From a virus: DNA of 64,000 nucleotides. How positions within the stretch are numbered: the first letter of the stretch is position 1; every line of letters begins with the position of its first letter. A program made the translations under genes and the position numbers. Shown one piece after another: positions 36,093 to 44,368 of the stretch. The notes under the pieces were generated by a model. It saw only the letters and a list, made by a program, of their open reading frames with translations. It was not told the origin of the DNA and did no database searches. The stretch covers positions 32,001 through 96,000 of IMG/VR virus record IMGVR_UViG_3300034152_000556. The stretch is one strand, 5' to 3'.

Positions 36093-36264
36093 CGTCTCCT
36101 CCGCCTTTTTCATTTTCTTCGTACCGGTAATATTCCGGTAACACTACTAGGCTCCAAAACACTAAAAAAATGCTTATTCCAAGCATTATCCACGAACTCC
36201 ATTTGCCAGCAAAGGGTATCATAATCCCTGAAATGACTAATAACACTTTCTGTTCTTTTTTCAT
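36076..36264 (-). CDS. Small membrane protein
   Basis: Likely start MKKEQKV, ATGA-coupled; two hydrophobic segments. Confidence 0.5.
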   Translation of the reverse strand: MKKEQKVLLVISGIMIPFAGKWSSWIMLGISIFLVFWSLVVLPEYYRYEENEKGGGDDGKNI

Positions 36265-37526
36265 ACATGTACAACATACCCTGTTTTGTTTACCATATCT
36301 GCTGAGCCAGAGACGACCCAAATGATTTTCTTGGGCATCTTTTTTCTGGGGTGTGCATTGATGTCTTCGCAACCACCATCCGTGAAGAATAAGGTTACAT
36401 CAGGGTTGCCTTTTTTAGATTCTTCAAGCGCTGGAAAAAGCACGGTTCCACCACCGCCTTTCGGCTTGAAGTTGATGTCTTTAACTTTCTTACAGTCATA
36501 AACATTATTAACTTCTGCATCACATTCAATTACTCGTGTTTTTGTGTAACGATCTTTCTCGATAATATGTTTTATACCAGACAGACCTTCACGAACTTCT
36601 TCTGGTGTCATACTACCAGATGTATCAATACACACATCAATTTTGAATGTGAAGTCTCTAGATTTACCGGGAAATGGTGAAATGAGCGGTAAGTTTTCAA
36701 TCGGTGTACATGTGAAAGCATACATTCTTTTACGATTGATTCTTACGTGTGCTCTTTTCCATTTTGCATATCTTGTTCCTTTTACAAGCTTTTTTATCAA
36801 TTGATAGTATGGCACTTTCGGCGGCCCGAGTGCTTCCTCAATCAATCTTGCAATATGAGCTGGTAAGTTACCTCGGTCTTTATTGAATCTTTTGACAGAC
36901 TCTTTAACAAGAGATTTGATGTGGCTGTCAACCTTTCTTGCTAAAGAACTGGTGTCTGAAACACCAGCTGTATTTTTCCAGCCTTCGTGACTATCAAAAC
37001 CACCATCTAAAGGTATTGGAACTTTCTTTGCTTTTTTCAGAAGTTCCCAATAATACCATTCTGTCACTTTTTCCGGTGGTAGCTCATATTGTTCTGGAAG
37101 TTGTGGGGGCCATTCTTTACCATTTATCATTAATGGGTTCTTTAATCCTATTTGTTGATTCACGGCGCAATCAGCGGCAATGTTAAATATGTCAATACGA
37201 CTTTGTGTTTCTAGAGGGTGTCTACCTATAGATTCGTTTGCAATGATTCTTATACATCTTGGCAAATGCTTATTAAGCAAATGCATACCTTCATGCTCGA
37301 TTACTTTAATGAGATTGTTATCATCAGTTCCCGCCACCAATGTTGGTTCGTAACATAATGTGATAGACCCATCAGAAGGTTCTACTTGAACACCCATAAT
37401 TGATTTGTAGCCGGGAACCGCTCTACGTCTTACTTGGGAGAATAAGTACCCCCAATAATTGTATTTCAACACAAATCGAGCAACGAGCTTTTTTATTCTT
37501 TCTGGGTCATGCAGTGGCGTTATCAT
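36261..37526 (-). CDS. HEXXH metallopeptidase-like + vWA protein (DUF2201-like)
   Basis: HEGMH, NIAADCAVN, DTSGSM, GGGGT, FTDG. Confidence 0.85.
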   Translation of the reverse strand: MITPLHDPERIKKLVARFVLKYNYWGYLFSQVRRRAVPGYKSIMGVQVEPSDGSITLCYEPTLVAGTDDNNLIKVIEHEGMHLLNKHLPRCIRIIANESIGRHPLETQSRIDIFNIAADCAVNQQIGLKNPLMINGKEWPPQLPEQYELPPEKVTEWYYWELLKKAKKVPIPLDGGFDSHEGWKNTAGVSDTSSLARKVDSHIKSLVKESVKRFNKDRGNLPAHIARLIEEALGPPKVPYYQLIKKLVKGTRYAKWKRAHVRINRKRMYAFTCTPIENLPLISPFPGKSRDFTFKIDVCIDTSGSMTPEEVREGLSGIKHIIEKDRYTKTRVIECDAEVNNVYDCKKVKDINFKPKGGGGTVLFPALEESKKGNPDVTLFFTDGGCEDINAHPRKKMPKKIIWVVSGSADMVNKTGYVVHV

Positions 37527-38755
37527 CTATTTCTTCCTACAGCAACAAGTGGCTCATAGAACAATTTTTTCCACTTGTCAGATTTCTTCATCATGATAAC
37601 GTGAATGTCAGTCATATACTTGAACTCTTCTGATGTTCGTGAGTATCCATCGATCATGGTCACGAACAAGGCCGTTGTATCAACAGGCATCATCAGCATA
37701 AAGTCTTCAATGTTTTTAAGATGACGATCTTCATATTTTGGTCTGGAAGTCAACATGAACATTGTAAACCCTGTCATCAGCTGAGCTACTCTGTCCATTT
37801 CTTTCGCTTTCAGAATTGCTTCGATCTTTGGTTTGACCTCATCAAATTTATAGAACACATCTTTTGGATTGATGTCTTTTTTATCTTTTGCGAATGAGAT
37901 AAACATTCTTGTCATATGAGTGTTGATGAGACCAGCAGCGATTGTTTCAATGTCGTCAAAATGATTTTCAACACCGCCATTCGCTTCGAATTTTTTCAAA
38001 TGATCAGACAGCTTTTCATAACTGGCTGGGTTGGCAAATACAGAACCAACTCGTTGAGCATCGAAGTCATAGATATATTCTGGGTGTGTTTGAATAAACT
38101 CAACAACAAATGGGTGAAAGTTTTGCTCTACGGCATACTTTAAGAAGTCTAGAGCACTCACTTCAGTAAAGATATGCAAATGACGACGAAGACCAGCAGC
38201 GTCTTCCATTGTATCCATCTGATACTCTGCATCATCTGGATTGTCAGTTGATACAACAAACCAACCTTCAGGAAATGCATAGTTGTGAACGGCATATTCA
38301 TTCTGAACTTGCCAAAGCAATTGCTGAAGATTGTGATCTGCTCTTGAAAATTCGTCAATGACAAAGAGACCATACTTTGAATCTCTTCGGGGTACAAAGT
38401 CCGAATAGAGCATATTGAATCGACCTGTCATTTGAAACTTATCGGTTAGAACTGGGTAAGGTGTTAGAAAATCATCTCTGGATAGAACCGGACCTTTGAT
38501 CATGATCATTTCAAATGGCAATTTTAACTCTTCTGCAAGTTCAGCCGTTAGTTGCCCACATATTTGTGTTTTACCAACACCAGCAGGTCCGATGATGTGG
38601 AAAGCCTGTCGCTGCACAGGAATTCGCTTTTGCCAAGCATTAATCGTATTTCGGAAGTCTGTTTTGATTAACTCTTTAATCTTTCCTATTGAAAGTGTGG
38701 GTATGTCAAGTCTTTCATGGTATTTTAATTCTTCTTGTTTTGTTCCTTCGGTCAT
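37523..38755 (-). CDS. MoxR-like AAA+ ATPase
   Basis: GPAGVGKT, IDEFSR, NP; partner of the adjacent vWA gene. Likely start MTEGT. Confidence 0.85.
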   Translation of the reverse strand: MTEGTKQEELKYHERLDIPTLSIGKIKELIKTDFRNTINAWQKRIPVQRQAFHIIGPAGVGKTQICGQLTAELAEELKLPFEMIMIKGPVLSRDDFLTPYPVLTDKFQMTGRFNMLYSDFVPRRDSKYGLFVIDEFSRADHNLQQLLWQVQNEYAVHNYAFPEGWFVVSTDNPDDAEYQMDTMEDAAGLRRHLHIFTEVSALDFLKYAVEQNFHPFVVEFIQTHPEYIYDFDAQRVGSVFANPASYEKLSDHLKKFEANGGVENHFDDIETIAAGLINTHMTRMFISFAKDKKDINPKDVFYKFDEVKPKIEAILKAKEMDRVAQLMTGFTMFMLTSRPKYEDRHLKNIEDFMLMMPVDTTALFVTMIDGYSRTSEEFKYMTDIHVIMMKKSDKWKKLFYEPLVAVGRNR

Positions 38756-38780
38756 TGAAACTCTCCTGGTAAATTGGTTG

Positions 38781-38805
38781 AGGCTCGGGTTTCCCACCCG
38801 AGCCT
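38781..38805 (-). terminator. Hairpin downstream of the SSB-like gene
   Basis: AGGCTCGGGT/ACCCGAGCCT perfect 10-bp stem; weak U-tract. Confidence 0.55.
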
Positions 38806-38831
38806 TTCCGATTACGAGAACATCTTTAACA

Positions 38832-39797
38832 TTAGTCAAAACTTACGTCATCAAAACTGAAAGGTTTCGATTCGGGTTTTTGTGCAGGAGGCTCTTTCTT
38901 TGCTTCTTGTTGTGGTTCTGGATCGTCTTTCTTTTTCATATCGCTACCGTCTGCTGGTAGCATACCTTCTGTTCTTTTATCATCTCCGTAACCGCTTGTT
39001 GCTTGTTTTCTTTGAGACCAATCGAATTTTTCATTGAATTTGGAAAGAGTCTTTTTAGAAACTTGAAGAACATCTTTCACGAAGTCTGTACTTAACTCAT
39101 TTCCCCTTGTCATAATGAAAACTTTCTTTGGTCCGAATTGTGAGCCTTCTTCACCAATTGTTATATTTGTAACAAATCTCTTGTTATTTACAACTTTCTT
39201 TTCAAACTCAAGGGATTGTTCTGTGGGTGGTGTGAATATTGGATCTAACTCAAGTCGATACATCTCACCAAGATAATCAGACACATTTTTATATTTCATG
39301 CCTTTTCCACGAATAAATACAAAGAGTGGTTTTCTTTCTTCGGTGAGGATGGGGTTACCGGCTTTGTCACAATAAATACCAGCAACCAGCAAGTGATTAC
39401 GACAGGGAGAACAGAAATCGTTTGCTGCACGTTCTACGGAGTTTGCGGGGCATTCTCTTTGTTTGCCACTATCCAGTTTTGTTGTTCCGTAGAATGGGGG
39501 CGAACCGGCCTTGTAAGAAAAGCATTCGATGCTCTCTCTCTGTCCTTTTGCTGCTGGTTTGACTTTTACATTGACATCTTTAACGTGAATAATGATCATA
39601 TTCACTTGTTGAAGATTGTACTCGACGCCACGAATCTGAAGGTTTCCAGCTTGCTCTTGTACGCCAGCCTGATTTGTTCGTGTTATACCAGCAATATAGA
39701 CGCTGTGAAAAAACTCATCTTCTGGTGACATCGGTTCTGGTGCTGAGTGGCTGGTCTGTGCAAGATCAGCATACTCATCAAGGTTAAAATCATTCAT
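38832..39797 (-). CDS. Putative ssDNA-binding/annealing protein
   Basis: Beta-rich core with Cys residues, low-complexity linker, acidic-aromatic tail FSFDDVSFD. Confidence 0.45.
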   Translation of the reverse strand: MNDFNLDEYADLAQTSHSAPEPMSPEDEFFHSVYIAGITRTNQAGVQEQAGNLQIRGVEYNLQQVNMIIIHVKDVNVKVKPAAKGQRESIECFSYKAGSPPFYGTTKLDSGKQRECPANSVERAANDFCSPCRNHLLVAGIYCDKAGNPILTEERKPLFVFIRGKGMKYKNVSDYLGEMYRLELDPIFTPPTEQSLEFEKKVVNNKRFVTNITIGEEGSQFGPKKVFIMTRGNELSTDFVKDVLQVSKKTLSKFNEKFDWSQRKQATSGYGDDKRTEGMLPADGSDMKKKDDPEPQQEAKKEPPAQKPESKPFSFDDVSFD

Positions 39798-39812
39798 AAA
39801 TACTCTTGCCTC

Positions 39813-40046
39813 CTAATGATATATTAGCATGTAATAAAACACGCCACCAGCAATAGCTGCTATACCAATATATTCTAAAAATGCGGGTATAGCATCTAAT
39901 GTGGCATTTGCAAAATCTAGTAACTTAATAGTATTTGAAATAAATGCATCTCTCTCATAGCAATCTTCTGAGCATGAGGGTTGTAATAAACATCTTCGGC
40001 ATGGATTTCTAAATGCCTTTCTTATCGATTTGAAATAAGACACCAA
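39813..40046 (-). CDS. Small Cys-motif membrane protein
   Basis: PCRRCLLQPSCSEDC plus a C-terminal TM segment. Confidence 0.55.
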   Translation of the reverse strand: MVSYFKSIRKAFRNPCRRCLLQPSCSEDCYERDAFISNTIKLLDFANATLDAIPAFLEYIGIAAIAGGVFYYMLIYH

Positions 40047-40603
40047 TTGCTTGCGTTCCCGTCTTCTGGTAATGTTACCAGCGTGAATTCATTATTAAAC
40101 CAACACGCCATGTTACGGTTTAGCAAATCTGTTGATAGAAATTCTTTTATTGATGGATAGTCTGGTAATGCTGTTAGCGTTTCATCTTCTAATGTGATTG
40201 GATTGATTTTTCGAACCTTCGAGTCTGTAATTTCTCCGGTAATCAATTTTGGGTGTGGGCAATACACAATAACCAAACGATTTCCGACCATACGAAAAAT
40301 CTCGTTTCGAAAAAAGTAGGTTTGTGTATCAAAGTCGTATGCAACGTTTTCTGCTTTCAACACACGATCAATAGATGTATGTTGTCTGCATAGAATACCT
40401 TCATCGGCTTTCGACTGACATTGTTCACAGTCGCTATGATCGACCTTGTATTTAATTCTTAATTCAAAATCTTTATCTGCGGCTTTTGAAAAATAGGTTA
40501 AAATTCTTCTTTTGTTCAATAGAAATTTAACTAGTGTAATGGGGTAAACCTCTACACCAAGCTTTTCTATGAACTTTTCAGTTTGAGTGTATCTGAGCAT
40601 CAA
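40022..40603 (-). CDS. Hypothetical protein (CxxC...C..H)
   Basis: 193-aa ORF with AGGAG SD. Confidence 0.75.
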   Translation of the reverse strand: MMLRYTQTEKFIEKLGVEVYPITLVKFLLNKRRILTYFSKAADKDFELRIKYKVDHSDCEQCQSKADEGILCRQHTSIDRVLKAENVAYDFDTQTYFFRNEIFRMVGNRLVIVYCPHPKLITGEITDSKVRKINPITLEDETLTALPDYPSIKEFLSTDLLNRNMACWFNNEFTLVTLPEDGNASNWCLISNR

Positions 40604-40645
40604 ATAACTCCTTCAATTACTTAAATTTTGTGCCAAAAAACGACA

Positions 40646-40746
40646 AAAAGCTGGCACTATATGTTTCACCCAGCTCGGTACTAACACAACTGTATTCACA
40701 AAGGAATAGAGCCGTGCTAGTAACCACGCTGGGTGATTAGAGCTTT
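40646..40746 (-). ncRNA. Unassigned structured RNA element (long G-U-rich hairpin)
   Basis: Nested helices AAAGCT/AGCTTT, TCACCCAGC/GCTGGGTGA, ACTAGCACGGCT/AGTTGTGTTAGT (fully paired only on the minus strand, via G-U) and TATTC/GAATA. Confidence 0.5.
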
Positions 40747-40757
40747 GCTTTAGACCG

Positions 40758-40943
40758 TTATTCAGTGCCACAGCTGTCATGATCGGAGTCATGTTGCTGT
40801 GACACGTATTGTTTCCTAATGTAGTCGGAAACTTTAACACCTAAAAAGTCAGCGACTTTGATGAGGGTACTGGGAGATGATTTTCTCAGGTGATCTTCGA
40901 TTCGCCGTCTCAACTTTTTTAGACTATTCGATTTATCTCCCAT
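40758..40943 (-). CDS. Small basic hypothetical protein
   Basis: 61 aa with AAGGAG SD; follows the ARPP-like gene. Confidence 0.6.
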   Translation of the reverse strand: MGDKSNSLKKLRRRIEDHLRKSSPSTLIKVADFLGVKVSDYIRKQYVSQQHDSDHDSCGTE

Positions 40944-40955
40944 TGTTACAACTCC

Positions 40956-41921
40956 TTACAGAACAATTGACATATAGACAGGTTCACCGTCTTGTTCGAT
41001 GAGGTCACCGCCCCCACCAGGAGTCTTAATCATCTTGACCGACACATTTCCATCTCTGTCAAGCTGGCTTACGTTGCTGACATCGATAGAGTTAAGCATT
41101 GGCAAGATGCTTTCTTGAACCGTAGTTGAGAAGTCTTCAAGAATTTCTTTGACCTCTTCTGGTGTAGCGTCTGATGGAATGCTCGGAAGCACCAGAGCAG
41201 ACTCTTGTAGACGACCCGATTTCTTCAAACGAATCATCTCAGCACCATAACAACCACGAATCAATAGTTGCCAATAACGCTGCCAATGCTCTTGCGATGG
41301 CATGATCTCCAAACCAACCGGTACGCCGCCGAACATAATCAGCGCACCAATCTGGCCCGGTACTGGCTCGAATTCAGCCGCAAACTCTTCAAGAGCTTCA
41401 CGAATTTCTGGTCTGTCGTAGAAGTCACGTAGGTGTCCACGCGCACGACCACGAAAACCTGGAATTGAACCGATCCAGCGTGTGATACGATCCCAAAGCT
41501 TGCCATAGTCACTCTTTTGACGGAATTGACGATTCAGAAAAGCCTTTCTCAGTTCAACCGGTAGGATATCGTACTCGTTATCCTCACCTCTCAGATAGCC
41601 ACCCTGAGACGCTTCGATACAACATGCATTGTCGAAACGTTTGGTTTTCTTTGCTGAAACAACACCGCTTCCGCTCATAGCATGGTCTTGTGCGCCTTTT
41701 CCACGCACCATGATGTTTGTAGGGATAATGGCAGGACGCTCAGGATCTTCGTTCTTGAACTCCATCGTACCGTAGTTTGTCGTTCTTTCGAACTTCAAAG
41801 AGGATGGCGATGCTACATTACCCCTCGCATCACCAACAATCGGTACAACAGTCATCTCGTTGACGATCTGAGCTTCGCCAACACCGATGTTATTGAATCT
41901 GAATTTCTCGAAGATTTTCAT
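40956..41921 (-). CDS. ARPP/DUF6569-like protein
   Basis: GEAQ....MTVVPI, N....PAIIP, AQDHA, CIEASQGG, Y..LW..I, FE.V.GQIGA...GG..VGLE, W...L...Y pattern recalled for this family. Confidence 0.55.
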   Translation of the reverse strand: MKIFEKFRFNNIGVGEAQIVNEMTVVPIVGDARGNVASPSSLKFERTTNYGTMEFKNEDPERPAIIPTNIMVRGKGAQDHAMSGSGVVSAKKTKRFDNACCIEASQGGYLRGEDNEYDILPVELRKAFLNRQFRQKSDYGKLWDRITRWIGSIPGFRGRARGHLRDFYDRPEIREALEEFAAEFEPVPGQIGALIMFGGVPVGLEIMPSQEHWQRYWQLLIRGCYGAEMIRLKKSGRLQESALVLPSIPSDATPEEVKEILEDFSTTVQESILPMLNSIDVSNVSQLDRDGNVSVKMIKTPGGGGDLIEQDGEPVYMSIVL

Positions 41922-41925
41922 AAGT

Positions 41926-43464
41926 TTATCCTCCTATAAGCTTTCGATATTTACTGACCAAAAGTTTTCTGACCATACCTGTATTTTCAATCATACGATT
42001 GAAGATCAGCTCGGTCTCCAAGTACTTGTAGTTTTCGACAGGCATTGGGTCTACACCTTCAGCCAGCTTTCTGCCAGTTCCCTTTTTCGCATCAGCGGAA
42101 AACACAGGGTTAATATGGAGAAGTTCAAACTCGTACCCTGTGTCTTGGAAATGTTGATAAGCTTTGTCAAACATTCCCTTTACGGCGTTTTCGTAACCGT
42201 CTGAAAATACGACGATCTTTTTGGCTCCTGTTAGAACAGCGTCTACCAAGCCTCTCCATAGAGGTGAACCACCAGCAGGGTAAACCACTTGATGTGACCC
42301 TTCTTTAATCACCGCTCCACCAACATAGATTATGTCTTTCACGTTATCCAATGTTGATATAATTGAAAGCGATGTCAAAAATGGGTGCAGTGGTCTTTCC
42401 TTACTACCTTGCATCGAGTGCGAAGCATCGAGAATACATACACATTCACCAATGTCGATCTTATCGATCTTTGCACCTTGCTTGTCGATTGCATCAGAGA
42501 CTTTGTCGAGGTCTTTCTTTCCACCGTTTGCAATCTGATGGTAGAAGTACTTCCACAAATCGTACAAGTCCTGTTTTTCATAATCGACTTTCACTTTGGC
42601 TCCGGCCTTCTTGCTTGCTGTTTGCATTTGCAGCTTTTCACGATCACTCATTTTTGATTTTTCGTATACATCTTTCAAAGGTATGTTCACTTTGTAAAGG
42701 TTACGAAAACCAACAACGGTTCTCATAGGCATACCCTTCATAAGGGTTCGAAATGCATCGACATCGTTGGCGATTGCTGCCTGTTTAAGCTTTTGGTATT
42801 GATCTATTTTTGGATAGTGGTAGGTGATATCACTAGCAACCGTATCCACGCCAAACAGATGCCACATGACAGGCTGTGCGCCACTTTGATAACGACCGAT
42901 GTACTTTCTGAACAAGGCTTCGTCTCCATTCAGAACTTTGAACAGTGTTTGTTTGCCAAGGGCATGTCTCACGAGACGTTTCATTTTACCCTTGTAGTTC
43001 ACTGCCAGTGCATCGGTTTCTTTTGGCGGACGGTTGAAAATGTACTCAAGAATCAACTTACGTGTACGAGCGTTGTTGACTCTCTTTGCGTTTGAGTCCG
43101 CACCAGCCAGAATCAGAAGGTTTTTCATAGCGTCTGGCACTTTTTCTTTGGCAAGATTGTGGTAGATGACCCTGCGTTCAAAATCAGAATCGAGCAGTGT
43201 GTCTTCAACAACCAAATCTTTACCGGAACCCGTTGGCGCAGGGTTCGACAAGAGCATATGTGTCATCATACCCTTGCTGAATCGCGTTCCGTTCAACAGC
43301 ATGGTCAGAGCGAACAGCACACGGTCATACTGAAACAACCCGTTCCACATCTCAAAAACACGATTGAATTGCGCGTCTTTTCCTTCGTAATAGGCTCCCT
43401 TCGGTACGTATTGAAGGATTCCACTGTCAATCTTTGTAACTGATTTTGTCACTGATTTCGCCAT
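41926..43464 (-). CDS. Divergent Ro60/TROVE-like RNA-binding protein (helical domain + C-terminal vWA)
   Basis: 512 aa. C-terminal vWA with LDASHSM MIDAS and FSDGYEN. LMKGMPMRTVVGFRNL resembles Ro60 MPLTALLRNL. ncRNA array directly upstream. Confidence 0.65.
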   Translation of the reverse strand: MAKSVTKSVTKIDSGILQYVPKGAYYEGKDAQFNRVFEMWNGLFQYDRVLFALTMLLNGTRFSKGMMTHMLLSNPAPTGSGKDLVVEDTLLDSDFERRVIYHNLAKEKVPDAMKNLLILAGADSNAKRVNNARTRKLILEYIFNRPPKETDALAVNYKGKMKRLVRHALGKQTLFKVLNGDEALFRKYIGRYQSGAQPVMWHLFGVDTVASDITYHYPKIDQYQKLKQAAIANDVDAFRTLMKGMPMRTVVGFRNLYKVNIPLKDVYEKSKMSDREKLQMQTASKKAGAKVKVDYEKQDLYDLWKYFYHQIANGGKKDLDKVSDAIDKQGAKIDKIDIGECVCILDASHSMQGSKERPLHPFLTSLSIISTLDNVKDIIYVGGAVIKEGSHQVVYPAGGSPLWRGLVDAVLTGAKKIVVFSDGYENAVKGMFDKAYQHFQDTGYEFELLHINPVFSADAKKGTGRKLAEGVDPMPVENYKYLETELIFNRMIENTGMVRKLLVSKYRKLIGG

Positions 43465-43543: not shown

Positions 43544-43625
43544 GTCTTAGTCGAGTGAATGGTGGTAGGTGTGGCTCATTGATTATTAGTAAATCTGAAG
43601 CCACACCAAGTCCATAAACTAAGAC
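43544..43625 (-). ncRNA. Array unit 6: handle with minimal cargo, embedded in the leader of the vWA gene
   Basis: ATGG-ACTT-GGTGTGGC-TTCAG...GCCACACC-TACCA-CCAT, inside outer stem GTCTTAGT/ACTAAGAC. Confidence 0.75.
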
Positions 43626-43710
43626 GACATCAATTCGTGATAGAAGGTCGCGGAGACGCTTAGCGACTCCCCACCATCTTCACGGTCAACGCCGCCGTGC
43701 ATACTGGTGT

Positions 43711-43801
43711 GGGGTGAGGTGAGTGTACCTCACAGGACGCCGTGCTAATCTAGCGTTGGCGCCCAGTGCAAACCTGAGCGGAAGATACACTCAGTCACCC
43801 C
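43711..43801 (-). ncRNA. Array unit 5: handle with GC-rich hairpin cargo
   Basis: GGGGTG-ACTG-AGTGTATC-TTCCG...GGTACACT-CACCT-CACCCC; internal stem GGGCGCC/GGCGTCC. Confidence 0.75.
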
Positions 43802-43810
43802 GAGAAGTAA

Positions 43811-43937
43811 GCGAGAGTAGCAATGTAGCGTGTTGTGTTTGACCATCCCCCCGTAGGTGGGGGGAGTAGGACTCGAACCTACAGTGTCATGCTCCCAATG
43901 CATGTGTCTTTTCCTGAAACCACATTAAGTCTCTCGC
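43811..43937 (-). ncRNA. Array unit 4: handle carrying a circularly permuted tRNA-Pro(UGG)-like domain
   Basis: GCGAGAG-ACTT-AATGTGGT-TTCAG, CATGC-ATTGGGA-GCATG, GTAGG-TTCGAGT-CCTAC, TCCCCCC-ACCTAC-GGGGGGA, TGGTC, ...GCTACATT-GCTA-CTCTCGC. Confidence 0.85.
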
Positions 43938-43979
43938 AAATTGTGAATACGGGGTGATCAGGCCCCGGGGCTTTAATAA

Positions 43980-44075
43980 GGGAGATAGAATATGTAGCTT
44001 GTGTGATACTTGTACCTGTCAATGGTAGGTACGAGAGTTACAGTCTCGTTATCTGAAACTACATAAAGTTCTCCC
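43980..44075 (-). ncRNA. Array unit 3: handle carrying a Tyr(GUA)-like anticodon stem-loop
   Basis: GGGAGA-ACTT-TATGTAGT-TTCAG...ACGAGA-CTGTAAC-TCTCGT...GCTACATA-TTCTA-TCTCCC. Confidence 0.78.
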
Positions 44076-44085
44076 GAAAAAACAA

Positions 44086-44189
44086 AGTGGAGTAGCAATG
44101 TACTAAGATGGGACTTGAACCCACAACATACTGTTTATAAGACAGTTGCTCTACCAGTTGAGCTACGGAAAGCACATTTAGTCTCCACT
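44086..44189 (-). ncRNA. Array unit 2: handle replacing the acceptor stem of a tRNA-Ile(UAU)-like body
   Basis: AGTGGAG-ACTA-AATGTGCT-TTCCG-TA-GCTC-AACTGGTA-GAGC-A-ACTGT-CTTATAA-ACAGT-ATGTT-GTGGG-TTCAAGT-CCCAT-CTT-AGTACATT-GCTA-CTCCACT. Confidence 0.88.
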
Positions 44190-44197
44190 GAAAAAAG

Positions 44198-44308
44198 AAA
44201 GGTAGTGAGAAATGTAGCTGTAAGGCGGATTTGAACCGCGTCTCTCCTTGGGCATAGGAGTGATGTACCAAACATCACTGAAACAGAAACTACATTAAGT
44301 CTACCTTT
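44198..44308 (-). ncRNA. Array unit 1: handle replacing the acceptor stem of a tRNA-Gly(GCC)-like body
   Basis: AAAGGTAG-ACTT-AATGTAGT-TTCTG...GATG-TTTGGTA-CATC-A-CTCCT-ATGCCCA-AGGAG-AGAC-GCGG-TTCAAAT-CCGC...GCTACATT-TCTCA-CTACCTTT. Confidence 0.83.
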
Positions 44309-44353: not shown

Positions 44354-44368
44354 TAATATATATAGATG
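44354..44368 (-). promoter_or_regulatory. Candidate early promoter CATCTATATATATTA driving the ncRNA array and early block
   Basis: 15/15 identical to 58912-58926; 46 nt upstream of array unit 1. Confidence 0.65.

What the first reader, a model, noticed from the sequence alone, without database searches (positions are those of the whole stretch)
43811..43937. Circularly permuted tRNA-Pro(UGG) opened in the D-loop, with a sealed acceptor stem
Seen, in minus-strand order: handle 5' - GG AAAA GAC A (3' half of the D-arm) - anticodon arm CATGC/ATTGGGA/GCATG - variable ACACT - T-arm GTAGG/TTCGAGT/CCTAC - TCCCCCC-ACC-TAC-GGGGGGA (acceptor 3' strand, discriminator/CC remnant, looped into the acceptor 5' strand) - TG GTC AA (5' half of the D-arm) - handle 3'. 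All four tRNA arms are present but permuted, with the handle grafted at the D-loop. This graft point differs from units 1-2 (acceptor stem) and from YrlA (anticodon stem). Inference: the handle captured tRNA modules independently more than once. Cleavage of the ACCTAC loop could in principle expose an acceptor end.
Basis: seen in the sequence. Interest (0 to 1): 0.8.

Follow-up and report, generated by a model that had tools for sequence, protein, structure and literature searches.

The report
Re-ordered tRNA-Pro mimic on Ro60 handle
A giant uncultured phage encodes a small RNA shaped like a proline tRNA whose amino-acid end is closed by a loop and whose chain is opened elsewhere. It sits on a shared "handle" next to a Ro60-like protein gene, so it is most likely a tRNA look-alike of the Y-RNA kind and not a working tRNA.

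Summary
The described sequence is exactly there. Unit 4 (43811-43937, minus strand) has a closing stem, the array's conserved handle, a complete anticodon arm (UGG), a T arm, and a 7-bp acceptor stem closed by the loop ACCUAC. U8-G9-GUC-AA follows, and its GUC can pair with GAC upstream of the anticodon arm.

ARAGORN calls the re-ordered sequence tRNA-Pro(UGG). The gene downstream folds like Ro60.

The sealed acceptor stem is not unique. About 24 units in related metagenomic phage loci have it, with covarying stems and usually CCA at positions 74-76. A covariance model built only from those units finds unit 4 as the best hit in the window (39.7 bits, E 3e-7).

What is unique among 92 loci is the position of the break. 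The other units are opened at nt 7/8, while unit 4 appears opened in the D-loop. That part rests on 3 base pairs in a single sequence, with pair probability 0.49 and canonical core features at p about 8e-5. It is probable but not proven.

"Independent capture" is not supported. The nearest bodies are ordinary-order Pro-like units of related phages.

This scan has met sealed tRNA mimics on Ro60-type handles in other genomes before.

Verdict: a new variant of a known kind (YrlA-like Y RNAs).

The parts
43931..43937 (-). closing (outer) stem, 5' strand GCGAGAG
   Evidence: Pairs with 43811-43817 in the MFE and centroid structures. A unit-specific closing stem is present in all units found.
43919..43930 (-). 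ACU internal loop plus handle helix 5' strand (UAAUGUGGU)
   Evidence: The motif ACU-N8-UUUC(A/C/U)G is shared by six units here and by about 209 units in 70 related loci. The helix changes on both strands together.
43914..43919 (-). conserved handle motif UUUCAG; its last G doubles as 'G18'
   Evidence: Conserved in window units and in L001-L092.
43906..43914 (-). D-arm 3' half: G18 G19 AAAA G23 A24 C25
   Evidence: GAC pairs with GUC at 43841-43843 in the MFE, pair probability 0.49.
43888..43905 (-). A26 plus anticodon arm CAUGC/AUUGGGA/GCAUG; anticodon UGG at 43895-43897, G37 at 43894
   Evidence: Rfam tRNA model partial hit, ARAGORN Pro(tgg), model R2 alignment. The same 7-nt loop is in the L057 unit.
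43883..43887 (-). variable region ACACU (U48 opposite A15)
   Evidence: Read from the sequence; 5 nt as in class I tRNAs.
43866..43882 (-). T arm GUAGG/UUCGAGU/CCUAC
43846..43865 (-). sealed acceptor stem: 3' strand UCCCCCC, loop A73-C74-C75-U-A-C, 5' strand GGGGGGA
   Evidence: A 7-bp hairpin directly after the T stem. The homologous hairpin in about 24 units of other loci has 6 of 7 pairs changed on both sides. R2 hit 39.7 bits, E 3e-7.
43839..43845 (-). U8 G9, D-stem 5' strand GUC (10-12), A13 A14
   Evidence: These 7 nt are extra relative to the 7-13 nt (median 10) linker of the other sealed units.
43830..43838 (-). A/C-rich 3' linker, first base readable as A15
   Evidence: Resembles the class linker (..CAACAUAA-type) in length and composition.
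43811..43829 (-). handle helix 3' strand GCUACAUUG, CUA loop, closing stem 3' strand CUCUCGC
43544..44308 (-). the array of six handle units to which unit 4 belongs
   Evidence: Handle motifs start at 44300, 44182, 44069, 43930, 43795 and 43611, and occur nowhere else in the 108.7-kb record in this form.
41926..43464 (-). 512-aa Ro60/TROVE-like protein gene directly downstream of the array
   Evidence: No Pfam or PHROG hit. At least 281 metagenomic homologues. The AF2 model (pLDDT 80.7) matches Ro60/TROVE structures over its full length (9kop, 9nf8, 1yvp, 2i91, phage phiLo 9l5y; Foldseek probability 1.00, TM about 0.5).
44354..44368 (-). AT-rich promoter-like motif upstream of the array
   Evidence: The same motif lies 60-100 nt before the first handle in L001, L002, L005, L026 and L057. 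It is present on the array strand in 48 of 93 loci.

Best explanation
Unit 4 is a small non-coding RNA gene. It is one of six units transcribed ahead of a very diverged Ro60-like protein gene of an uncultured giant phage.

Each unit has a private closing stem and a conserved handle. By inference, the handle is the binding site of the Ro60-like ring, as in Y RNAs. Each unit also carries a variable cargo.

The cargo of unit 4 folds as a proline tRNA (anticodon UGG, G37). It has intact anticodon and T arms and a full 7-bp acceptor stem whose two strands are joined by the loop A73-C74-C75-U-A-C.

The chain most likely leaves and re-enters the tRNA body in the variable part of the D-loop, between about nt 15 and nt 18. 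The RNA is then a circular permutation of a tRNA with canonical junction lengths: 2 nt between acceptor and D stems, 1 nt between D and anticodon stems, a 5-nt variable region, and 0 nt between T and acceptor stems.

As transcribed it has no free 3' end, so it cannot be charged. It most likely works as a tRNA mimic held on the Ro60-like protein. It would display a Pro-type anticodon loop and a tRNA elbow to a tRNA-binding enzyme or nuclease, acting as a tether or a decoy.

Shown: the sequence, the arms, membership of the sealed-acceptor class, and the Ro60-like fold of the neighbouring protein.

Inferred: binding to that protein, formation of the D stem, and the function.
For: Sequence and fold
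- The segments are exact.
- The fold has z = -4.1 and forms all arms.
- The re-ordered form is called tRNA-Pro(tgg) by ARAGORN.

D-stem models
- With the GAC/GUC helix the energy is -47.0 kcal/mol. Without any D stem it is -45.7. With the collinear Rfam-type D arm it is -42.1.
- Pair probabilities are 0.49 for GAC/GUC and 0.001 for the collinear arm.
- U8, G9, C12-G23, A14, A15:U48, G18G19 and A21 are all in place, p = 7.6e-5 in linker shuffles.
- The 3' linker is 17 nt, against 7-13 (median 10) in the other sealed units. The surplus of 7 equals nt 8-14.
- The 5' side is about 10 nt shorter than in the other sealed units.

Sealed acceptor as a family trait
- About 24 non-redundant units in other loci carry it.
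- The acceptor helix has 6 of 7 pairs with changes on both sides and 91.7% of cells paired, against 44-49% when the partner is slid.
- CCA lies exactly 8 nt after the T stem in 45 of 110 T-arm units.
- Model R2, built without any window sequence, scores unit 4 at 39.7 bits, E 3e-7, the best hit in 64 kb.

Context
- The neighbouring protein folds like Ro60.
- Arrays with the same handle lie upstream of its homologues in 70 of 81 loci.

Published precedent
- They bind Ro60 (PMC4201824).
Against: - The D stem is 3 bp in one sequence, and no homologue with the same wiring was found in 92 loci, so it has no covariation support.
- It is absent from the centroid structure.
- ARAGORN's call hardly depends on it.
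- The Rfam tRNA model prefers a collinear alignment that borrows GUUU from the handle, at 25.9 bits, below the gathering score of 29.
- G18 is part of a conserved handle motif and may not be free.
- No RNA data exist, so expression, ends and processing are unknown.
- Binding of the handle to the Ro60-like protein is inferred from gene neighbourhood and analogy only.
- The handle lacks the GNCGAA motif of YrlA stems, and Rfam's YrlA model does not match.
Confidence: 0.6

Rival explanations
1. Unit 4 is a D-armless member of the sealed-acceptor class. It lost its D arm. The handle hangs from the acceptor/anticodon junction by two long single strands, and the GAC/GUC complementarity is incidental.
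For: All other sealed units have the D arm 5' of the anticodon arm. One related unit (L039/L040) carries only a T arm plus the sealed hairpin, so arms can be lost in this family. The D stem is only 3 bp, pair probability 0.49, and is absent from the centroid. Three pairs at that fixed place arise in 0.9% of linker shuffles.
Against: The full set of core features at exact positions is rare, p = 7.6e-5. The linker surplus of exactly 7 nt matches nt 8-14. All G and U of the linker are concentrated in UGGUC, and the rest is pure A/C.
Confidence: 0.25
2. Unit 4 has ordinary gene order. The D arm is GUUU/AGAC, built with the handle's UUUC, as the Rfam tRNA model aligns it. The GC hairpin after the T arm is an extra 3' appendage.
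For: Rfam RF00005 aligns 43922-43866 to model positions 8-63 with four standard D-stem pairs, at 25.9 bits.
Against: The score is below the gathering score of 29. This structure is 4.9 kcal/mol worse than the permuted one and has pair probability 0.001. It needs the conserved handle motif and the last handle base pair. It puts C, not A, at position 14. It leaves the exact 7-bp stem plus ACC directly after the T stem unexplained.
Confidence: 0.03
3. Unit 4 is a true permuted pre-tRNA gene. The handle is cut out, the ends are ligated and the acceptor loop is opened, giving a translating tRNA-Pro. This is how the permuted tRNA genes of Cyanidioschyzon merolae mature, and one of those is opened at 20/21 in the D-loop.
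For: All tRNA parts are present, and the re-ordered form passes ARAGORN. No ordinary tRNA gene lies in the 108.7-kb record. The record encodes a CCA-adding-type enzyme. D-loop-opened permuted tRNA genes exist in a red alga (PMC3978253).
Against: No bulge-helix-bulge motif is seen at the joint; the MFE shows a 3x3 internal loop and a 9-bp helix. No RtcB or Rnl2-type ligase was found in the record, which is only about 35% complete. The same handle carries cargoes that are not tRNAs at all (units 3, 5, 6) and always sits beside a Ro60-like gene. No bacterial splicing endonuclease is reported (10.1101/312249).
Confidence: 0.05
4. Unit 4 is a decaying or neutral copy, debris from a rearrangement inside the array, with no function of its own.
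For: The wiring is unique among 92 loci. CCA is degraded to CCU.
Against: All helices are perfect (7+9+5+5+7 bp) and the fold has z = -4.1. The closing stem and handle are intact. Strain contigs from the same study keep the unit with only a G37A difference, although a 33-nt spacer beside it is deleted.
Confidence: 0.07

Closest known systems
YrlA (Y RNA-like A, Rfam RF02553) of bacteria and mycobacteriophages, bound by Ro60/Rsr (Chen et al. 2014, PMC4201824; Wang et al. 2018, 10.1101/312249)
   Same: Encoded next to a Ro60-type gene. Modular: a stem formed by the 5' and 3' ends plus a tRNA-like module. The acceptor stem is closed by a loop, and T and D elements are present. It has been described in print as resembling a circularly permuted tRNA.
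   Different: In YrlA the scaffold enters through the anticodon stem, so there is no anticodon loop. Unit 4 keeps a complete anticodon arm and is opened in the D-loop. The handle sequence differs (no GNCGAA motif). The Rfam model does not match. The protein partner has no detectable TROVE sequence signature and is Ro60-like only by fold. Six units stand in tandem rather than one or two.
Mycobacterium smegmatis YrlA
   Same: [quoted passage not shown] It is cut by RNase P at the tRNA +1 site in vitro. In vivo its two halves stay on Rsr and the 5' half gains CA to complete CCA (PMC4201824). Unit 4 also has 7 bp, G+1, A73 and C74 C75.
   Different: Processing of unit 4 is untested. Its graft point is different, and it has an anticodon arm.
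Deinococcus radiodurans Yrn1
   Same: A Y RNA whose tRNA-like part keeps an anticodon-arm-like hairpin and is wired differently from YrlA. The authors took this as a sign of separate evolution from tRNA (PMC4201824).
   Different: Yrn1 has a 6-nt 'anticodon loop', no clear D arm and no sealed 7-bp acceptor stem.
Circularly permuted tRNA genes of Cyanidioschyzon merolae, type I (tRNA-Leu(UAA), joint 20/21 in the D-loop) (Soma 2014, PMC3978253)
   Same: The 3' part of the tRNA is encoded upstream of the 5' part. The acceptor ends are joined by a short intervening sequence, and the termini lie in the D-loop.
   Different: Those are real pre-tRNAs of a eukaryote. They are processed at a bulge-helix-bulge motif through a circular intermediate into working tRNAs. 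Unit 4 has no such motif, is in a phage, and sits on a Y-RNA-like handle.
Sealed-acceptor handle units of related phage Ro60-like loci
   Same: Same handle. Same order anticodon arm, T arm, acceptor 3' strand, (N)CC(A) loop, acceptor 5' strand, A/C-rich linker. Recognised by model R2.
   Different: In the others the D arm lies 5' of the anticodon arm, so the break is at nt 7/8. In unit 4, nt 8-14 follow the acceptor 5' strand, so the break is in the D-loop. Its loop has CCU, not CCA.

Membership tests
Canonical tRNA gene | Collinear cloverleaf found by tRNA finders at or above their thresholds | tested here: not met
   ARAGORN finds 0 genes in the window and in the whole 108.7-kb record. Rfam RF00005 gives 25.9 bits against a gathering score of 29, for positions 8-63 only.
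Canonical tRNA gene | Free 5' end at +1 and 3' end at N73(CCA) | tested here: not met
   The acceptor strands are joined by the 6-nt loop ACCUAC. Whether processing frees them is not testable here.
Canonical tRNA gene | All four arms and the core invariants present, in any order | tested here: met
   The re-ordered sequence is called tRNA-Pro(tgg). U8, A14, A15:U48, G18G19, A21 and the T loop UUCGAGU are in place. The D stem has only 3 bp.
YrlA (Rfam RF02553) | Match to the family covariance model at the gathering score (69 bits) | tested here: not met
   No match on unit 4. The only YrlA row is 17.6 bits across units 2-3.
YrlA (Rfam RF02553) | Encoded beside a Ro60/TROVE gene | tested here: met
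   The 512-aa gene lies 350 nt downstream and has a Ro60 fold by Foldseek. There is no TROVE Pfam hit.
YrlA (Rfam RF02553) | Scaffold stem takes the place of the anticodon stem (no anticodon loop) | tested here: not met
   A complete 5-bp/7-nt anticodon arm is present.
YrlA (Rfam RF02553) | GNCGAAN0-1G motif in the Ro60-binding stem (PMC4201824) | tested here: not met
   The handle strands UAAUGUGGU and GCUACAUUG and the loops ACU, UUUCAG and CUA hold no such motif.
YrlA (Rfam RF02553) | Bound by Ro60 in vivo; T and D loops modified by TruB and DusA | not testable with these tools
   No RNA or biochemical data. No RNA run is listed.
   R2 gives 39.7 bits, E 3.2e-7, a full-length alignment and the best hit in the window.
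   Only GAAAAGAC lies between UUUCAG and A26, against 18-19 nt in the others.
   Unit 4 has CCU. 45 of 110 T-arm units in the loci have CCA at that exact offset.
Permuted pre-tRNA genes (algae, archaea) | Bulge-helix-bulge motif at the joined termini | tested here: not met
   By inspection of the MFE: a 3x3 internal loop between a 7-bp and a 9-bp helix, with no 3-nt bulges around a 4-bp helix.
Permuted pre-tRNA genes (algae, archaea) | Matured to a ligated, chargeable tRNA | not testable with these tools
   No RNA data. No RtcB or Rnl2 hit in the record, which is about 35% complete.

The most novel reading that the evidence does not exclude
Unit 4 is opened in its acceptor loop by host RNase P at G+1, trimmed to ACC, and completed by the phage's own CCA-adding enzyme. 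The result would be a nicked, two-piece proline tRNA that stays clamped by the handle on the Ro60-like ring. It could then be charged or be recognised as a real tRNA-Pro 3' end. This would be a protein-tethered tRNA used to sense, titrate or repair damage by host tRNA-targeting defences.
Probability: 0.12. Interest if true: 0.85.

Novelty: new variant of a known kind. Interest (0 to 1): 0.55.

Why it matters
Known bacterial Y RNAs (YrlA) imitate only the top half and elbow of tRNA, and their partner is unknown. This phage family mounts whole tRNA shapes with specific anticodons on a Ro60-type handle. It does so in several different wirings, and unit 4 adds a D-loop opening.

This points to two things. 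The tRNA fold, not the chain order, is under selection. The anticodon loop also matters: Pro-type loops recur in at least four phages. Both point to anticodon-specific partners such as anticodon nucleases, modification enzymes or synthetases.

The conserved NCCA inside the sealed loops, the exact 7-bp stems, and a phage CCA-adding enzyme make the RNase P and CCA-addition route seen in M. smegmatis directly testable.

Tried and rejected
The contigs of the closest protein relatives (about 61% identity) could not be fetched to look for an orthologue of unit 4.
- An exact-pattern scan of viral contigs for the T arm plus acceptor strand found nothing.
- Two scans of genome contigs looked for the anticodon arm, with and without the T arm. 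The first found nothing. The second found two chance matches inside coding regions that are not tRNAs. No donor tRNA was identified. The test needs exact matches, so it is weak.
- blastn against phage records gave only generic T-arm similarity to phage tRNAs.
- Sequencing runs: no RNA holder is listed. Four DNA contig sets from one study hold the stretch, so nothing can be said about expression or RNA ends.
- The first covariance model R1 (6 seeds) was too narrow. It scored unit 4 at only 16 bits, E 0.1. It was replaced by R2, built from 36 units.
- The ARAGORN shuffle of the 3' linker does not discriminate the D arm.
- Infernal or tRNAscan-SE on the re-ordered sequence could not be run. The RNA tools take only stored sources, and Infernal is not in the script box.
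- The profile search of the Ro60-like family against PDB sequences found nothing. Only the fold search did.
- No RtcB or Rnl2-type ligase was found in the record, which is about 35% complete.

Full report
WHAT IS THERE

In order it holds:
- the closing stem GCGAGAG
- ACU
- the handle strand UAAUGUGGU
- the motif UUUCAG
- G-AAAA-GAC
- A
- the anticodon arm CAUGC/AUUGGGA/GCAUG
- ACACU
- the T arm GUAGG/UUCGAGU/CCUAC
- UCCCCCC, then ACCUAC, then GGGGGGA
- UG, GUC, AA
- a 9-nt A/C-rich stretch
- the handle strand GCUACAUUG
- CUA
- the closing stem CUCUCGC

RNAfold gives -47.0 kcal/mol (z = -4.1; none of 200 shuffles folds as well). Its MFE contains every one of these helices, including the 3-bp GAC/GUC helix. 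No ORF of 60 aa or more overlaps the unit.

CONTEXT

The window is part of a 108.7-kb IMG/VR virus record that CheckV rates about 35% complete. All genes run on the minus strand. Multisubunit RNA polymerase and topoisomerase II genes mark it as a giant phage.

Unit 4 is the fourth of six units that share the motif ACU-N8-UUUC(A/C/U)G. In this form the motif occurs only in this array.

The gene 350 nt downstream (41926-43464, 512 aa) has no Pfam or PHROG hit. It has at least 281 metagenomic homologues. Its AlphaFold model (pLDDT 80.7) matches Ro60/TROVE structures over the full length: the top nine Foldseek hits, probability 1.00, TM about 0.5, including a Thermus phage Ro60.

I fetched 91 related loci. 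A simple helix finder located about 209 handle units in 70 of the 81 loci held at that point. The handle helix and closing stems change on both strands together.

An AT-rich motif precedes the arrays here and in 48 of 93 loci.

The setting is that of Y RNAs next to Ro60 (PMC4201824), although the Rfam YrlA model does not match.

IS IT A PERMUTED tRNA?

ARAGORN finds no tRNA in the window or in the whole record. It calls the re-ordered sequence tRNA-Pro(tgg) in 17 of 20 joint variants.

I circularised every cargo of 55 nt or more from the 209 units and trimmed the joint in 112 ways. Only unit 4 gave calls whose joint falls at tRNA positions 16-19. Other units gave calls with the joint at positions 1-9 and a few scattered ones, meaning ordinary order with a short pseudo-acceptor stem.

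ARAGORN is lenient about the D arm. After shuffling the 17-nt 3' linker, 80% of shuffles still gave some call, and 82 of 2000 did as well as the real sequence. The strong part of that evidence therefore concerns the acceptor, anticodon and T arms.

THE SEALED ACCEPTOR STEM IS A FAMILY TRAIT

Independently of the handle, I searched all loci for a T arm followed at once by a hairpin.
- About 24 non-redundant units in other loci have a 6-8 bp hairpin starting 0-2 nt after the T stem. The stems are unrelated in sequence.
- Most of their loops begin with CCA or NCCA.
- Over all 110 non-redundant T arms in the loci, CCA lies exactly 8 nt after the T stem (tRNA positions 74-76) in 45 cases. No other offset up to 24 nt has more than 7.
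- A covariance model seeded on six of these units recovered 36 units.
- On that alignment the acceptor helix has 6 of 7 pairs with changes on both sides and 91.7% of cells paired. With the partner slid by 1-3 columns, 44-49% are paired. The alignment is fitted to the model, which favours the structure somewhat.
- A second model built from those 36 units, none from this window, scores unit 4 at 39.7 bits, E 3.2e-7. The alignment is full-length and is the best hit in the 64-kb window.

Unit 4 is therefore a member of a recurrent sealed-acceptor class. Its perfect 5-bp T stem plus 7-bp acceptor stem is the most tRNA-like of them.

WHERE THE CHAIN IS OPENED

In all other sealed units a complete D arm follows the handle (UUUCUG-AUC-GCUG-loop-CAGC-A or similar). 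After the acceptor 5' strand, a 7-13 nt (median 10) A/C/U-rich linker leads to the handle. Those units are opened at nt 7/8.

Unit 4 has only GAAAAGAC between UUUCAG and A26. Its 3' linker is 17 nt. The surplus, UGGUCAA, is what a tRNA has at positions 8-14.

With that reading the junction lengths are canonical (2, 1, 5 and 0 nt). U8, G9 with C12-G23, A14, A15 opposite U48, G18G19 and A21 are all in place. This combination at exact positions occurs in 7.6e-5 of composition-preserving shuffles of the linker. Three pairs alone occur in 0.9%. The criteria are the textbook invariants, but I chose them after seeing the sequence.

Energies are as follows:
- permuted D stem: -47.0 kcal/mol, pair probability 0.49
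- no D stem: -45.7 kcal/mol
- collinear D arm that the Rfam tRNA model builds from the handle's GUUU (25.9 bits): -42.1 kcal/mol, pair probability 0.001

From general tRNA knowledge, the stretch between R15 and G18 is the variable, outward-facing part of the D-loop, so a stem inserted there is sterically plausible.

No unit with the same wiring was found in 92 loci, so there is no covariation test. I put the D-loop graft at about 0.6. The main rival is a D-armless unit.

ORIGIN

Over nt 26-65, unit 4 is closest (75-80%, against a median of 62.5%) to ordinary-order units with the same T arm in other phages: L043, L014, L038, L057 and L086.
- L057 has the identical anticodon loop AUUGGGA.
- L038 has AUCGGGA (Pro CGG).
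- L008 also carries a Pro(UGG)-type unit.

No GTDB species representative holds a tRNA with this anticodon arm.

The CCA, linker and T-arm features are shared across topologies. Together with the points above, this favours rearrangement within an old family. One route is a duplicated tRNA module trimmed at new points, which is the dimeric-tRNA route proposed for YrlA (10.1101/312249). Repeated fresh capture is less likely, but the data do not exclude it.

HOW IT MAY WORK

As transcribed the RNA has no acceptor end. The most likely reading is a Y-RNA-type tRNA mimic on the Ro60-like ring that displays a Pro-type anticodon loop (G36-G37 present) and a tRNA elbow.

The cargoes in this family carry many different anticodons. 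The window's own array holds the UAU body of unit 2, the UGG body of unit 4, a further tRNA-like body in unit 1, and three cargoes that show no tRNA signature (units 3, 5, 6). This argues for anticodon-specific partners, so tether and decoy functions are both open.

A second step is possible. M. smegmatis YrlA is the one YrlA with a 7-bp acceptor stem. It is cut by RNase P, receives CA in vivo, and both halves stay on Rsr (PMC4201824). Unit 4 has the same determinants: a 12-bp acceptor/T stack, G+1, A73 and C74 C75.

The phage record encodes a class II CCA-adding-type nucleotidyltransferase outside the window. This is circumstantial. The record is incomplete and may hold ordinary tRNAs elsewhere.

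OTHER DATA

Strain contigs from one study keep the unit with a single G37A difference, while a 33-nt spacer beside it is deleted. No RNA runs were listed.

COMPARISON AND NOVELTY

The idea that a Y RNA is a circularly permuted tRNA with a closed acceptor stem is published for YrlA, which is opened at the anticodon. Yrn1 shows that other wirings exist. D-loop-opened permuted tRNA genes are known only as true pre-tRNAs of a red alga.

Notes from this scan report sealed tRNA mimics on Ro60-type handles in other phage genomes, opened at other points. I did not use them as evidence.

Unit 4 is thus a new variant of a known kind: a full tRNA-Pro shape with its anticodon arm kept, its acceptor end sealed, and the chain probably opened in the D-loop.

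Noticed in passing
L003, L005, L010, L014, L026, L032, L048, L049, L051, L062, L076, L077, L084 and others (upstream of the Ro60-like gene): CCA lies exactly at tRNA positions 74-76 in 45 of 110 non-redundant T-arm units. This holds both inside sealed acceptor loops and in ordinary-order units, where it is followed by an A-rich linker. A U follows the acceptor 5' strand in about 17 of 23 sealed units, although their D arm is on the other side.
   Followed up: partly
L039:1781-1848 (same in L040): A handle unit whose cargo is only a T arm plus a sealed 7-9 bp hairpin. This is an acceptor/T minihelix with no D or anticodon arm.
   Followed up: no
L010:2012-2140, L014:2194-2328, L018:1730-1855, L042:2268-2392: Ordinary-order handle units that ARAGORN reads as tRNAs with anticodon UUA (reads the UAA stop codon), with GCCA or CCA after the acceptor strand. 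Units in L008 (Pro), L032 (Gln), L034 and L036 (Ser) are called as complete collinear tRNAs inside the handle.
   Followed up: no
outside the window: G000:C1:18201-19568, minus strand (L095:562-1929): A 455-aa class II CCA-adding-type nucleotidyltransferase with PolyA_pol head, RNA-binding, HD and tRNA_NucTran2_2 domains. It lies in a record with no ordinary tRNA gene in its 108.7 kb.
   Followed up: partly
window 43944-43976 and 43894: Strain contigs from the same study lack 33 nt of the spacer between units 3 and 4. One short contig has G37A in the anticodon loop of unit 4.
   Followed up: no
window 44354-44368; L001:3166 and 3334; L002:1265; L005:1740; L026:1765; L057:1830: An AT-rich motif (TCTATATATATTA-type) lies 60-100 nt upstream of the first handle unit in many loci (48 of 93). 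It is probably the phage promoter of the array.
   Followed up: partly
window 36261-41921, minus strand: Downstream of the Ro60-like gene lie an ARPP-1 domain protein (40956-41921, starting 4 nt after it), a MoxR-like AAA ATPase (37523-38839) and a DUF2201 VWA/metallopeptidase protein (36261-37526). Whether they belong to one system with the RNAs was not examined.
   Followed up: no
window 44107-44166, minus strand: Unit 2 is the only Rfam tRNA hit above the gathering score (52.3 bits, model positions 7-64, anticodon UAU). Many contigs of other organisms in the same metagenomes match it at 85% or more, so its body is close to ordinary tRNAs.
   Followed up: no
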